DNA from: the human T2T-CHM13v2.0 reference genome, Homo sapiens
Assembly (NCBI RefSeq): GCF_009914755.1
Contig: NC_060926.1
DNA length: 64,000 nucleotides
Direction: 5' to 3' (one strand)
Under the pieces are notes generated by a model. That model was given only the letters and a program-made list of their open reading frames with translations, searched no databases and was not told where the DNA came from. Made by a program: the position numbers and the translations under genes. Positions 22,304 through 37,093 of this stretch are shown piece by piece (position 1 is the first letter of the stretch; each line of letters opens with the position of its first letter).

Positions 22304-22400
22304 ATGCACTGGTTGGCTTCAGCCACCCAGACATCCGCTAGTATCGTCTCTTCTTCCCTTCTATCTGCAGTTGATGTTTCTTCTTCTCTGACCATGTCAG
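22304..22400 (+). CDS. C2orf78: C2orf78 exon 1, duplicate copy 2 (intact)
   Basis: Identical 97-nt coding sequence and intact GT donor; usage unknown. Confidence 0.7.
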
Positions 22401-25400
22401 GTAAAGAAAGAAACTTCTTAAAAAGGTTTTCATGAGATTTCTTTGCCACTAAATTTAGGTTTCTTCCCCCCTATATTCCCAAACAGCTTGGAATAACAGG
22501 GAAATTATTGAAGTAGAAATCCAGAGACCTCATTTCAGTTTTGGCTTTGACATTTACTAGCTGTGTGACTTTAGATAACGTTTATTCTCTCATAAAATCT
22601 GTTTCCTCATCTATTACACTAGGATAATAGACTGGTTATTCCCCCTGGCCCTTTTCTTTTCTAATACTGAGTCTTAAAGGGTATATGTATAGAAAATGAA
22701 ATCAGAGACTTTCTGAGAGTGTTCATTTCAACAGAAACAGAGAAAAAACCAAAGTGGTCTAGAAAACTAGCAATATATTCTGAGATGTTTCATGTGTAAT
22801 AGTCTCCCTCTACTAATATTTCAACTTTCGTATTTTAAATTTAGTGATGCTTAGTGATGTTTTAAATAATATTCAGCCAGGCACGGTGGCTCATACCTGT
22901 AATCTCAGCACTTTGGGAGGCCATCTCCCTCACTAATATTTCAACTTTCCTATTTTAAATTTAGTGATGTTTACTGATGTGTAGTGATGTTTTTAATATT
23001 CAGTTGGGCGTGGTAGCTCATGCCTGCAATATCAATGCTTTGGGAGCCTGAGGTGGGAGGATCGCTTTGGGCCTAGGAGTTCCCGGCCAGTCTGGGCAAC
23101 ATGGCAAGACCCCATCTCTACAAAAACTTTTTAAGACTCAGCCAGGGTTGGGTGTATGCCAGCTACGCAGGAGGCTGAGGTGGGAGGATCAGAGGACTGC
23201 TTGAGCCCAGGAGGCTGAGACTGCAGTGAGCCATGTTCATACCACTGGACTTCAGCCTGGGTGACAAAGTGAGACCCTGTCACAAACAAACAAACAAACA
23301 AACAAACAAAAAAGAAAAGTAGTATTCACGTTTTGGACATTCCTATCTAAACTAGGTGGAAAGAGAAAATGGAGAGTACTGGGTTCTAAGGAGGCAGGTA
23401 TTCTAGGGTAAGTAATTTGGTATTTTAATTTAAGCAGAAAGACATGGTCCCCTACTTTTCCCCTTGGGATATGCCCTGGAGAATGACAAAATGATTTTAA
23501 AAGAAAAAAATATATTTTAAATTTGAAAAAAAAAAGCAGAAGGACAACAGAGTGAAATGTATTCAGAGTAGGGCAAAATGAAGTTGATTTTAGCAAATGC
23601 TTAGATCAATGGACGAGAAAGGAAACAGGCTACATTACATATCCCTAGGAAAAGCAGCTTATCAGAAGTCATATTCAGTCACTTTTTTCTGTTGCCTTTT
23701 TGAACATAGATGACACTTGACAGTTTGTAATATAAACATTTTGGAAATATGTTTTAGAGGCCGGGCACGGTGGCTTACGCCTGTAAACCAAGCACTTTGG
23801 GAGGCCGAGGTGGGCTGATCACCTGAGGTCAGGAGTGTGAGACAAGCCTGACCAACAAGGAGAAACCCCATCTCTACTAAAAATACCAAATTAGCCGGGC
23901 ATGGTGGCACATGCGTGTAATCCCAGCTATTTGGGAGGCTGAGGCAGGAGAATCGCTTGAACCCGAGAGGCAAAGGTTGTGGTGAGCCAAGATCGCGCCA
24001 TTGCACTCCAGTCTGGGCAATAAGAGCGAAACTCCGCTTCAAAAGAAAAAAAAAAGAAACCAACATGTTTTAGAAATGAGGCTTCCAGGCGGGGTGCGGT
24101 GGCTCACGCCTGTAATCACAGCACTTTGCGAGGCTGAGGTGGGAAGATCACCGGAGGTCAGGAGTTGGAGACCAGCCTGGCCAACGTGGTCAAACCCCAT
24201 CTCTACTAAGAATACAAAAATTAGCTGGGTGTGGTGGTGCGCACCTTTAATCCTACGTACTTGGGAGGCTCAGGCATCAGAATTGCTTGAACCAGGGAGG
24301 CGCATGATGCAGTGAGCCGAGATCGTGCCACTGCCCTCCAGCCTAGGCGACAGAGCGAGACTCCATCTAAAAACAAACAAACAAATAAACAAACAAATGA
24401 TCAATGCAGGTATCTCTAAAAGCTTACCACCAAGGAAAATGATTATATCCATAGATTTCCTCCCCCAAACCAGCTTAGTCCACACGTAAATCATTAGCAA
24501 CTCAGCCCTAACTCATTTTATCACAGTTACAAGAGAAGTTAGTGAGAAAAGCACTAACTAGGAAAATGAAAACCAAGGCAATCCAAGTCAACTTGGGCTC
24601 ACTGCAGACATCTGTTCCTTATGCTTGGGCACACAGCACAACTCACAACAGTGCCTTTTTCACAGACCCCTCTTTAATTTCCTCCACAAAACCCATCAGG
24701 TCACCATAGTTCATGATGTTTCAAAATAAACAACCATCATGAGAAAAACATGCAGTACGTCTTACAATCTTGTATTCCTTAAAAATATGACAAGGAAAAA
24801 ACATGTAGAAAAACCAGAGGATTTAAAAGCAATCTACAGGCCACGCACGGTGGCTCACACCTGTAATCCCAGCACTTTGCGAGGCTGAGGCAGGAAGATC
24901 AACCGAGGTCAGGAGTTTGAGACCAGCCTGGACAACATGGTGAAACCTTGTCCTTAATAAAAATACAAAAATTAGCCAGGGATAGTGGCGGCACCCGTTA
25001 TCCCAGCCACTTGGGAGGCTGAGGCAGGAGAATCACTTGGACCAAGGAGGCAGAGGTTGCAGTGAGCCAAGACCGTGCCACTGCACTCCAGCCTGGGCAA
25101 AAGAGTGAAATTCTGTCTCACTCTTATAAATAAAATAAAGTTAATAAAACAAAAGCAATTTACATTCTACAGACATACTAATGAATGACATAAATGAGGT
25201 AATACGGTATAAAACAAAATGGAAAAAATACATTATGATTATTTTCTTCAGTGTACAGAAGTCATGGAAGTTCTGGACTATCTAGCTACATAAAAAATAT
25301 TGGGCCAGGCGCAGTGGCACACGCCTGTAATCCCAGCACTTTGGGAGGCTGAGGTGGGCAGATCCCAAGGTCAGGAGACCATCCTGGCTGACACGGTGAA

Positions 25401-35100: not shown

Positions 35101-36996
35101 AGGCGCAGTGGCACACGCCTGTAATCCCAGCACTTTGGGAGGCTGAGGTGGGCAGATCCCAAGGTCAGGAGACCATCCTCGCTGACACGGTGAAACCCCG
35201 TCTCTACAAAAAAATACAAAAAATTAGCCGGGCATGGTGGCGAGTACCTTTAATCCCAGCTACTCGGGAGACTAAGGCACGAGAATGGTGTGAACCTGGG
35301 AGGCAGAGCTTGAAGCTAGCAGAGATCGGCCACTGCCCTCCAGCCTGGGTGACAGAGAGAGACTCTGTCTCAAAAAAAAAAAAAAAGAATTGTCTATTTT
35401 GTTAATACAAAATAGGTATGTTGAATTGTTTGTCACAGAAACCAAAAAATCCACATAAATCTCTTTTTTCCTGTACCCTCACCTTGCCTGTTTCCTATTC
35501 TCCACTAAATGCTTCAACTCTTCATTTTGCCTGGCCCTTGCACCCAAGCATGGCTGACAGAAAATCCTAAAGGCCCAAGATTCTATAGTGGCTGTTTGCA
35601 AGGGAGACGAGGCTATAAGTAACTGCCACACTGGATCCTCTTATGTGAGAAGAAAGAAAGAAAGTATCCTGAATGCCTCTCACATATAAAAGAGCAGGAT
35701 GGCAGGGTGTCTGTGTGGCCCAAGGAGCCAGAGGTAGCAAACTGTGGGCAAAAGAATTGTGACCAAAGGCTAGAAGAGGGAAGGTCTGCAGTCAGCCTTG
35801 TCTTCTACCTCTCTGCTGTTTGCTTCTCATGAGCAGAGTCCGTTTTCCAAACATCAGGACACTGAAAAGAAGACTCCTGCTCTGGAAGTTGACAAGAAGG
35901 AATATCCACGAATGTAAAAATGCAAGATCAAGGCTTGGCCCAGAAACAATGCCTAAAATCAAGGGGTTAAAAATGGGAGAGCAGAAGAGAGATCCAAGTC
36001 CAACCTGGCCCAGCCCAAAGAAGGTGGAATTCAAGGAGAAGAAACTAAAAGAGAAGAGCCTTGGACCACATCATTTCCTACAAGGGGCAATCAACGAACT
36101 TTGCTGTTCAAGTTACAAAAGAGGGTTCTTTAATCTCTTCCTTTGGCCCTTAAAATCGGCAGTAGGGCCGGGTGCGGTGGCTCCCGCCTGTAATCCCAGC
36201 ACTTTGGGAGGCTGAGGCGAGCAGATCACAAGGTCAGGTGATCGAACCATCCTGGCTAACAGGGTGAAACCCTGTCCCTACTAAAAATACAAAAAATTAG
36301 CCGGCTGAAGTGGCAGGCGCCTGTAGTCCCAGCTACTAAGGAGTCTGAGGCAGGAGAATGGCGTGAACCTGGGAGGTGGTGCTTGCAGTGAGCCAAGATC
36401 ACGCCACTGCACTCCAGCCTGGGTGACAGAGCCAGACTCCATCTCACAAAAAATTCAATAAAATAAAAAAGCAGCAGTAAATTCATTAATCAGATTCACT
36501 GAAATAGTTTTAGAACAACTGTAATTGCTCAACTTAGACATCCCCTTCCTTTCTCCCCAAGGATATTGTGTATGTACTGTATAATTATAAATGCATAGTA
36601 TTATATAATATGAAATGTAACACATTAAATATAAATGTTAATTATATTAGTGAACATTTATGAGAAACATTGAGATGATCTCCCTAACATGAGAGCCTGG
36701 GGGAAAGTGGGACTATCATGTCTGTCTTGCAGATTTCACCTCCCCAGAGCTCAGCCACTTAGTGCTGTTACACCTTTCCTACCACCTCTGCCAGCCAATC
36801 CTGTCTTGTGGGGAATCTGACCTCCCTATTGGCTATCGCAGACCTTTAAACTGCCTGCTTTGTGACATCATTCTCCCACCAAACCAACTGCCACCTGGTA
36901 GAATCTTGGGGTTTCCTGGGCGTGGCCTGTAAATTTGTATCATCGCAAGGGGCCAGTGACCAGTAACCAGTGACCAGTGGCCTTCATACTGGACAC

Positions 36997-37093
36997 ATGC
37001 ACTGGTTGGCTTCAGCCACCCAGACATCCGCTAGTATCGTCTCTTCTTCCCTTCTATCTGCAGTTGATGTTTCTTCTTCTCTGACCATGTCAG
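36997..37093 (+). CDS. C2orf78: C2orf78 exon 1, copy 5 (intact, closest to exon 2)
   Basis: Identical 97-nt coding sequence and intact GT donor; the 5'UTR has private variants. Confidence 0.78.

What the first reader, a model, noticed from the sequence alone, without database searches (positions are those of the whole stretch)
22340..37093. Hidden symmetric 30-nt micro-exon in every exon-1 copy could concatenate VDVSSSLTMS repeats
Seen: inside exon 1, TCTCTTCTTCCCTTCTATCTGCAG is a strong polypyrimidine tract plus CAG, exactly 30 nt before the donor (17471-17500, 22371-22400, 27268-27297, 32165-32194, 37064-37093). The segment is phase 1-1. A transcript starting in an upstream copy could therefore splice into the 30-nt piece of each downstream copy, adding G|TT GAT GTT TCT TCT TCT CTG ACC ATG TCA G = VDVSSSLTMS in frame up to four times, each with another ACCATG. 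Inference: DNA unit number could be read out as peptide-repeat or start-codon number. A canonical branch point is not obvious.
Basis: partly seen in the sequence, partly recalled or inferred. Interest (0 to 1): 0.75.

Follow-up and report, generated by a model that had tools for sequence, protein, structure and literature searches.

The report
Acceptor-like site in repeated C2orf78 exon 1
The first exon of the testis gene C2orf78 sits five times in a 4.9-kb tandem repeat and holds a splice-acceptor look-alike 30 bases before its end, but the look-alike lacks a branch point, so a ladder of extra ten-residue repeats is an untested and rather unlikely idea.

Summary
The 24-nt pyrimidine tract plus CAG, the 30-mer behind it and the GTAAAG donor occur five times, identically. 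The 30-mer is phase 1-1. Zero to four insertions stay open and each adds one Met, and the predicted junction is absent from the window. The five copies are one observation, not five. They come from a 4.9-kb tandem array (15811-38729, four full units plus 0.68) that carries the upstream region, exon 1 and the start of intron 1 of C2orf78.

By a crude scoring matrix the site is acceptor-like. It lies in the top 18 of 4685 AGs, and the four downstream copies are the best pseudo-exons in intron 1. However, its 27-nt AG-free zone holds no yUnAy and not even a UnA. All 10 of 10 annotated coding-gene acceptors in the window have one. The tract encodes an N-terminal peptide conserved across placental mammals, and 0 of 120 orthologue representatives carry the decapeptide twice. 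No annotated transcript holds the 30-nt exon.

No RNA data could be consulted. Most likely the downstream copies are removed with intron 1, and inclusion is at most a minor isoform. The exon-end CAG|GTAAAG has a proper branch point and could act as a recursive splice site.

The parts
15811..38729 (.). Tandem array, period 4897-4900 bp, four full units plus 0.68. It carries the upstream region, exon 1 and the first 1.7 kb or more of intron 1 of C2orf78.
   Evidence: blastn of one unit against the window: inner units 100 and 99.96% identical, outer units 98.8-99.0%, edge pieces 93.4-93.8%. Five-copy alignment.
17277..17500 (+). Exon 1, copy 1 (first exon of NM_001080474.3; CDS from 17404)
   Evidence: Hub annotation. 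Translation. Position 17297 is unique to this copy.
22177..22400 (+). Exon-1 copy 2; lies inside annotated intron 1
   Evidence: Offset 4900. Identical to copies 3 and 4 over the 3.3 kb compared.
27074..27297 (+). Exon-1 copy 3; lies inside annotated intron 1
31971..32194 (+). Exon-1 copy 4; lies inside annotated intron 1
36870..37093 (+). Exon-1 copy 5. RefSeq places the first exon of other transcripts at 36965-37093.
   Evidence: Hub annotation. Four 5'UTR positions are unique to this copy, all upstream of 36965.
17447..17470 (+). Pyrimidine tract plus CAG, the acceptor look-alike. Also at 22347-22370, 27244-27267, 32141-32164 and 37040-37063. It encodes part of the Ser/Leu-rich N-terminus.
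   Evidence: Matrix score 8.05 against 9.2 for the real exon 2 acceptor.
17440..17441 (+). Upstream AG that bounds the 27-nt AG-free zone (17442-17468). The only A residues in that zone are 17443 and 17463.
17471..17500 (+). The 30-nt segment (VDVSSSLTMS, phase 1-1, holds an in-frame ATG at 17494). Also at 22371-22400, 27268-27297, 32165-32194 and 37064-37093.
17471..17475 (+). TTGAT, a yUnAy branch-point motif inside the 30-mer, with its A 27 nt before the exon end. A second one, CTGAC, lies at 17488-17492.
17498..17506 (+). CAG|GTAAAG: the exon 1 donor. In downstream copies it is also a recursive-splice-like AG|GT.
   Evidence: Donor score 3.91; as an acceptor 4.15. AG-free zone 28 nt with TTGAT at -27.
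41668..42417 (+). C2orf78 exon 2, the annotated partner of the exon 1 donor
   Evidence: Hub annotation. Acceptor score 9.2. Three yTnAy in its 46-nt AG-free zone.
43262..45339 (+). C2orf78 exon 3 (CDS to 45183; DUF4629, PF15442, in relatives)

Best explanation
The 30-nt piece is the 3' end of the first coding exon of C2orf78, a spermatocyte-expressed gene. It is present five times because a 4.9-kb tandem array repeats the upstream region, exon 1 and the start of intron 1. The pyrimidine tract plus CAG is the coding sequence of a Ser/Leu-rich N-terminal peptide that is conserved in placental mammals and written with TCY serine codons. In transcripts that start in an upstream unit, the downstream exon-1 copies are most likely removed as part of intron 1. 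Every unit then yields the same mRNA, and unit number is read out, if at all, as the number of promoter/first-exon copies rather than as peptide-repeat number. Inclusion of the 30-nt piece would be at most a minor isoform. Shown here: the sequence anatomy, the array, the conservation of the peptide and the missing branch-point motif. Inferred: which units are transcribed, and that the copies are skipped.
For: Array structure. All five exon-1 copies have at least 1.6 kb of homologous upstream sequence, and their coding parts are identical. Conservation: the stretch IVSSSLVSAVDVSSSLTMSE in gibbon P0007 has close variants in carnivores, moles, bats, rodents, lagomorphs and artiodactyls. 53 of 120 representatives have the decapeptide within 3 mismatches, and 0 of 120 have it twice. 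Branch point: 10 of 10 annotated acceptors of protein-coding genes in the window have a yTnAy at 15 nt or more inside their own AG-free zone. The candidate has none and no TnA either. The background is 411 of 4678 AGs, 8.8%. Size: at 30 nt the exon is at the micro-exon scale, where exon definition is hard (abstract of bioRxiv 10.64898/2026.01.16.699960). Neural micro-exons have a predicted branch point at a median of 45 nt (same paper, section 19), whereas the AG-free zone here is only 27 nt. Annotation (hub table): the selected mRNA joins 17500 directly to 41668. It is placed on copy 1, which differs from copies 2-4 at 17297. None of the 3 transcripts has a 30-nt exon. Expression: C2orf78 loads on a spermatocyte-specific component (passage of PMC9792524).
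Against: By a crude matrix (frequencies recalled, not from a tool) the site scores 8.05. That is in the top 18 of 4685 + strand AGs and close to the real exon 2 acceptor at 9.2. The four downstream micro-exon copies rank 1-4 among 4, 20, 31, 93 and 288 pseudo-exons of intron 1 at five threshold pairs. The peptide does not force the acceptor: 7 of 7 Ser codons in the two VSSSL runs are TCY against 60 of 126 in the rest of the CDS (binomial 0.0056). Only 109 of 20000 synonymous recodings keep the AG and reach the score. A UGC sits directly before the AG, as in most SRRM3/4-dependent micro-exons (57 of 73 and 51 of 71; passage of bioRxiv 10.1101/2024.09.17.613571). Human branch points are degenerate (recalled). 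Annotation and read aligners handle 30-nt exons in near-identical repeats badly, so their absence from RefSeq is weak evidence. The orthologue clusters are collapsed at 90% identity, which would hide an isoform with a 10-residue insert. The placement of the NM record on copy 1 may reflect curation from the genome rather than an independent cDNA.
Confidence: 0.65

Rival explanations
1. Transcripts from upstream units splice their exon 1 donor to the CAG 30 nt inside each downstream exon-1 copy, and then onward from that copy's donor. This inserts one to four in-frame VDVSSSLTMS units, so array length is read out as a peptide-repeat and start-codon ladder.
For: In frame, with no stop and one more Met per unit. 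Strong pyrimidine tract and CAG, score 8.05, top 18 of 4685. Best pseudo-exon of intron 1 at every threshold tried. Codon choice is more pyrimidine-rich than the peptide needs. A UGC lies before the AG (for the comparison). The cryptic acceptor is transcribed 4.9 kb after the donor, about 19 kb before the real exon 2 acceptor.
Against: No yTnAy and no TnA in the 27-nt AG-free zone, against 10 of 10 coding-gene acceptors that have one. The only A at a usable distance, 17443, has no U at -2. The length is 30 nt. The donor is only moderate (3.91, with A at +5). Not in any of the 3 RefSeq transcripts (hub table). 0 of 120 orthologue representatives carry a doubled decapeptide. A well-formed 3' splice site at the exon end would remove the piece.
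Confidence: 0.12
2. Recursive (distal-exonic) splicing. The CAG|GTAAAG at the end of each downstream exon-1 copy serves first as a 3' splice site, using the branch point TTGAT and the pyrimidine run inside the 30-mer. The join regenerates the same 5' splice site. Intron 1 is then removed one 4.9-kb unit at a time and the mRNA shows no trace of it.
For: TTGAT has its A at -27, inside a 28-nt AG-free zone. That passes the same test as 10 of 10 coding acceptors, against a background of 8.8%. Acceptor score is 4.15; 5 of the 13 annotated acceptors score lower. The regenerated donor is identical by construction. [quoted passage not shown]
Against: About 10 nt separate the pyrimidine run from the AG. 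Most exons end in AG before GT, so the motif alone is common. No lariat or nascent-RNA data were available. The intron is only 24 kb, so recursion is not needed.
Confidence: 0.15
3. Only one unit is transcribed, for example the last one next to exon 2 or the diverged first one. In the first case no pre-mRNA ever runs through a downstream exon-1 copy, and the question does not arise.
For: Upstream of the exon, copy 1 differs from copies 2-5 at 100 alignment columns, including a 17-bp indel. Copy 5 differs from the rest at 134 columns downstream and in the 5'UTR. RefSeq places first exons only on copies 1 and 5 (hub table).
Against: The exon placed at 36965-37093 holds no position that distinguishes the copies, so that placement is arbitrary. 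The NM record on copy 1 implies read-through of four units. Copies 2-5 share their upstream 1.6 kb.
Confidence: 0.2

Closest known systems
LPA kringle IV type 2 repeat (kb-sized tandem unit read out as protein repeats)
   Same: A tandem unit of about 5 kb inside a gene, variable in number. There, unit number sets the number of protein repeats: a 5.6-kb copy-number variation generates more than 40 isoforms (abstract of PMC6314250).
   Different: KIV-2 units hold complete internal exons that are constitutively spliced (recalled). Here the unit holds a promoter-proximal first exon. The only internal acceptor is a look-alike without a branch-point motif, and no repeat is known in the mRNA or protein.
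Intronic pseudo-exons (good splice-site matches that are not spliced)
   Same: An AG and a GT with good matrix scores at exon-like spacing inside an intron, with no transcript support (hub table).
   Different: This is the best-scoring one in the intron. It is frame-preserving, repeated four times, and its donor is a proven donor in the first-exon context.
SRRM3/4-type micro-exons
   Same: Very short and frame-preserving, with a pyrimidine tract followed by UGC just before the AG.
   Different: Those have extended branch point-to-AG regions (median 45 nt) and deep vertebrate conservation. Here the AG-free zone is 27 nt with no branch motif. The gene is spermatocyte-expressed, and the papers read define micro-exons as 3-27 nt (listing).
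[quoted passage not shown] 2023)
   Same: YAG|GT at an exon end, preceded by a branch point and pyrimidines, which would remove the upstream intron plus the exon and regenerate a 5' splice site.
   Different: No lariat evidence here. The 'exon' is a duplicated first-exon end inside a tandem array, so recursion would proceed unit by unit.
Clustered alternative first exons (protocadherin, UGT1A type; recalled)
   Same: Several promoter-plus-first-exon units in a row, each with only a donor, all joining one downstream exon.
   Different: There the first exons differ in coding sequence. Here the coding parts of the five copies are identical, so all units give one protein.

Membership tests
Cassette micro-exon | Length of about 3-27 nt (up to about 30), preserving the frame | tested here: met
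   30 nt, phase 1-1, no stop with 0-4 copies. This is at the upper edge of the definition used in the papers listed.
Cassette micro-exon | Functional 3' splice site: pyrimidine tract, AG, and a branch point inside the AG-free zone | tested here: not met
   Tract and CAG are strong (8.05). But there is no yTnAy and no TnA in the 27-nt AG-free zone, while 10 of 10 coding acceptors in the window have one.
Cassette micro-exon | Extended branch point-to-AG region with a UGC (SRRM3/4 type) | tested here: inconclusive
   A UGC is present directly before the AG. The AG-free zone is 27 nt, against a median predicted branch distance of 45 nt.
Cassette micro-exon | Observed inclusion in transcripts | not testable with these tools
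   No RNA-seq or cDNA collection is on hand. The exon is absent from the 3 RefSeq transcripts in the hub table.
Tandem-array-encoded protein repeat (LPA KIV-2 type) | kb-sized tandem units within a gene, variable in number | tested here: met
   Array of 4.68 units of 4.9 kb. A 9.8 or 14.3 kb deletion, two to three units, is reported at DUSP11-C2orf78 (passages of PMC5410329). C2orf78 is listed as an intragenic tandem duplicon (table in PMC4079513). Population copy-number variation was not seen directly.
Tandem-array-encoded protein repeat (LPA KIV-2 type) | The protein or mRNA carries the unit-encoded repeat | tested here: not met
   The annotated protein has the decapeptide once. 0 of 120 orthologue representatives have it twice. 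Isoforms hidden inside 90% clusters could not be examined.
Recursive splice site (distal exonic) | YAG|GT with an upstream pyrimidine run and a branch point, regenerating a 5' splice site | tested here: met
   TCAG|GTAAAG, with TTGAT at -27 in a 28-nt AG-free zone and a 13-14 nt pyrimidine run.
Recursive splice site (distal exonic) | Lariat or sawtooth evidence of use | not testable with these tools
   No lariat or nascent-RNA data are available.
Macrosatellite / large tandem repeat | Head-to-tail units of kb size with homogenised inner copies | tested here: met
   Inner units are 100 and 99.96% identical, the edges 93-94%. Copies 2-4 are identical over 3.3 kb. The locus is not in the supplements of the macrosatellite survey PMC4063668.

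The most novel reading that the evidence does not exclude
In spermatocytes, pre-mRNAs that start in upstream units of the copy-variable array are processed at every downstream exon-1 copy. There are two possible routes. One uses the -30 CAG and yields a 30-nt ladder, so that a person's unit number sets the maximal number of N-terminal VDVSSSLTMS repeats and in-frame start codons of a candidate infertility gene. The other uses the exon-end CAG|GTAAAG as a recursive site, so that the intron is removed unit by unit. The balance between the two adjacent acceptors would then decide between a repeat-bearing and a standard protein.
Probability: 0.15. Interest if true: 0.65.

Novelty: new member of a known kind. 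Interest (0 to 1): 0.33.

Why it matters
If the 30-nt piece were spliced, a copy-variable 4.9-kb array would produce a length-polymorphic N-terminus and extra start codons. The gene is spermatocyte-specific and has been prioritised in a non-obstructive azoospermia cohort (passage of PMC9792524). It would be a second way, besides LPA-type arrays, for large tandem repeats to be read into protein. Standard read alignment would miss it. If it is not spliced, which is the likelier case, the locus is still a clean natural test of what makes a strong pyrimidine tract plus AG insufficient as an acceptor. It is also a reminder that five identical copies in a tandem array count as one observation.

Tried and rejected

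2. RNA folding of 141 nt around the site in copies 1 and 2 gave z-scores of -1.48 and -1.47, with 16 and 15 of 200 shuffles folding as well. No structure was worth claiming.

3. Literature: the full-text search for C2orf78 gave 22 papers. I read passages in six of them. None of those passages mentions a repeated first exon, a micro-exon or a 30-nt ladder. The other 16 were seen as listing only, and supplements were not searched for them.

4. A search for 'exon repetition' with tandem duplication gave 10 papers on trans-splicing, circular RNA and detection tools (listing only). None concerns this locus.

5. The supplements of the macrosatellite survey PMC4063668 hold neither C2orf78 nor DUSP11 (11 files).

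6. A literature search on the AG exclusion zone failed on term syntax and was not repeated. That concept is used from recall.

7. 'The tract is just what the peptide dictates' was considered and rejected as a full explanation, because only 109 of 20000 synonymous recodings reach the score.

8. The upstream AGs at 17421, 17429 and 17440 were considered as alternative acceptors. None appears among the 16 top pseudo-exons printed.

9. MaxEntScan and SpliceAI could not be run.

10. The thresholds were set after seeing the candidate's scores. One search repeats the count at five threshold pairs.
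Full report
**What is there**

- The 24-nt pyrimidine tract ending in CAG occurs exactly five times on the + strand, at 17447, 22347, 27244, 32141 and 37040. Shuffles of the window give none.
- The 30 bases behind it are identical in all five places, and each is followed by GTAAAG.
- The annotated start codon is at 17404, so the 30-mer begins and ends after the first base of a codon. It reads VDVSSSLTMS.
- Placing 0 to 4 copies between exon 1 and exon 2 gives no stop and one more Met per copy.
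- The junction that such splicing would create is absent from both strands of the window, also as 12- to 16-mers.

**Why there are five copies**

The copies belong to one tandem array that runs from 15811 to 38729.
- The period is 4897-4900 bp: four full units plus 0.68 of a unit.
- The two central units are 100% and 99.96% identical to the query unit. The outer units are 98.8-99.0% identical, and the two edge pieces 93.4-93.8%.
- Over the 3.3 kb shared by all five exon-1 copies, copies 2, 3 and 4 are identical. Copy 1 differs mostly upstream of the exon (100 columns). Copy 5 differs mostly in the 5'UTR and downstream (134 columns). Copies 1 and 5 are 92.9% identical.
- This pattern fits an old duplication whose hybrid unit was amplified recently. 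That is an inference.
- The coding part of exon 1 is identical in all five copies. In the 5'UTR, 17297 is unique to copy 1 and four bases are unique to copy 5.

The five sites are therefore one observation.

The locus appears in print as a duplicated region:
[quoted passage not shown] That is two to three units.
- A table of intragenic high-identity tandem duplicons that lists C2orf78 (PMC4079513).

**How acceptor-like the site is**

MaxEntScan and SpliceAI were not available.
- The site scores 8.05. The real exon 2 acceptor scores 9.2, the exon 3 acceptor 5.2, and the 13 annotated acceptors of the window range from -4.0 to 9.3.
- It lies within the top 18 of 4685 AGs on the + strand.
- The donor scores 3.91, with A at +5. 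That is moderate; 14 of 1140 GTs in intron 1 reach it.
- Among AG-GT pairs 9-300 nt apart in intron 1, the four downstream copies rank 1 to 4 at all five threshold pairs tried. The totals were 4, 20, 31, 93 and 288 pseudo-exons.

**Where it fails**

An AG at 17440-17441 limits the AG-free zone to 27 nt. The only A residues in it are 17443 and 17463. There is no yTnAy between 17393 and 17470, and not even a TnA.

As a control I applied the same test to every annotated acceptor in the window:

| Set | With yTnAy (A at 15 nt or more, inside own AG-free zone) |
|---|---|
| Protein-coding acceptors (C2orf78 x3, STAMBP x2, DUSP11 x5) | 10 of 10 |
| Predicted lncRNA acceptors | 0 of 3 |
| All + strand AGs | 411 of 4678 (8.8%) |
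| Candidate -30 acceptor | none |

The candidate fails a test that every coding acceptor here passes.

The exon would also be only 30 nt long. That is a size at which exon definition is difficult (abstract of bioRxiv 10.64898/2026.01.16.699960). Known neural micro-exons compensate with an extended branch point-to-AG region, with a median predicted distance of 45 nt (section 19 of the same preprint). That is not the case here.

A UGC directly before the AG does resemble SRRM3/4-dependent micro-exons (57 of 73 and 51 of 71 have one; passage of bioRxiv 10.1101/2024.09.17.613571). This is a resemblance only.

**What the tract is otherwise**

The translated exon 3 finds C2orf78 relatives throughout placental mammals (348 hits, 120 listed).
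- Their N-termini keep the Ser/Leu-rich peptide. An example is IVSSSLVSAVDVSSSLTMSE in gibbon P0007, with close variants in carnivores, moles, bats, rodents, lagomorphs and artiodactyls.
- The tract therefore lies in conserved coding sequence that predates the human array.
- 53 of 120 representatives hold the decapeptide within three mismatches. None holds it twice.
- This is weak evidence, because clusters are collapsed at 90% identity and most entries are gene predictions.

The peptide does not fully explain the tract.
- 7 of 7 serine codons in the two VSSSL runs are TCY, against 60 of 126 elsewhere in the CDS (binomial 0.0056).
- Only 109 of 20000 synonymous recodings keep the AG and reach the observed score.
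- Slippage of TCT repeats or selection on the RNA could each account for that. The site was also picked because it looks like an acceptor, which inflates these figures.

**Annotation**

According to the hub's table, the selected mRNA joins 17500 to 41668, and none of the three RefSeq transcripts holds a 30-nt exon.
- The selected mRNA's first exon is placed on copy 1, which has a private base at 17297. If that placement reflects a real cDNA, a transcript from unit 1 skips all four downstream copies. I could not check the record itself.
- The alternative first exon placed at 36965-37093 contains no copy-distinguishing base, so its placement on copy 5 says nothing.

**A better-formed site next door**

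Inside the 30-mer lie TTGAT (A at 17474) and CTGAC (A at 17491), separated by a 13-14 nt pyrimidine run.
- The AG at the very end of the exon thus has a canonical branch motif at -27 in a 28-nt AG-free zone.
- Its acceptor score is 4.15. Five of the 13 annotated acceptors score lower.
- It is followed at once by GTAAAG.
- In a downstream copy this is the layout of a recursive splice site at the distal end of an exon. Such sites are described from lariat reads as a route to exon exclusion, and they also occur in short and medium introns (abstract and passages of PMC10156609).
- If used, it would remove one 4.9-kb unit per step, regenerate the same donor and leave no trace in the mRNA. This is an inference without data.

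**Verdict**

- The sequence observation is confirmed.
- The proposed read-out is arithmetically sound but untested, and the indirect evidence leans against efficient use.
- Most likely (0.65) the downstream copies go out with intron 1, and all units give the same mRNA of this spermatocyte-expressed gene (passages of PMC9792524 and PMC12636702).
- Appreciable micro-exon inclusion: about 0.12.
- Unit-wise recursion: about 0.15.

The deciding experiment is cheap: junction-aware realignment of testis long reads, or an exon 1-exon 2 RT-PCR.

Noticed in passing
15811-38729: The array looks like an old two-copy duplication plus a recent amplification. The edges are 93-94% identical and copies 1 and 5 are 92.9% identical. 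Copies 2-4 have no difference over 3.3 kb, and the two central units differ at 2 of 4897 bases. Between 17508 and about 18131, copies 1 and 5 share bases against copies 2-4 (32 'abbba' columns).
   Followed up: partly
38729-39178: The right end of the array abuts a 450-bp (AT)n-rich simple repeat. The unit joint (about 20710/20711 and its copies) lies at the end of a masked 319-bp repeat (20400-20718), which suggests repeat-mediated origin of the duplication.
   Followed up: no
17498-17506 and copies at 22398, 27295, 32192, 37091: The exon-end CAG|GTAAAG is preceded by TTGAT at -27 and a pyrimidine run. This is the layout of a distal-exonic recursive splice site.
   Followed up: partly
17441-17500: Exon 1 holds two successive 30-nt stretches, each with a VSSSL run and each ending in CAG (by eye, 16 of 28 bases match). 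The doubled VSSSL is present in other mammals, so it is old. In serine-codon-rich sequence this may be chance.
   Followed up: no
17404 and 17494: The first ATG has C at -3 and C at +4, a weak context. The second, in-frame ATG inside the 30-mer has A at -3. Several orthologue models start at the second Met, so leaky scanning could give two N-termini.
   Followed up: no
41670-41672: The first full codon of exon 2 is Tyr in this human sequence. In most orthologue representatives with an aligned N-terminus it is Asn, Asp or His.
   Followed up: no
proteins P0004-P0123: C2orf78-like genes are multi-copy in several lineages: many distinct 'C2orf78-like' entries in Aotus, Callithrix, Saimiri, squirrels and bats. 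A paper reports 150 copies in blue whale (table in PMC10919930). The family seems prone to duplication.
   Followed up: no
16777-17800: The region around the start site is not a CpG island (GC 0.41, CpG observed/expected 0.21). Nine AATAAA/ATTAAA hexamers lie on the + strand between one copy's donor and the next copy's acceptor look-alike.
   Followed up: no
17508 and copies: Intron position +8 is G in copies 1 and 5 and A in copies 2-4. Lariat or unspliced reads could therefore partly tell which donor was used.
   Followed up: no
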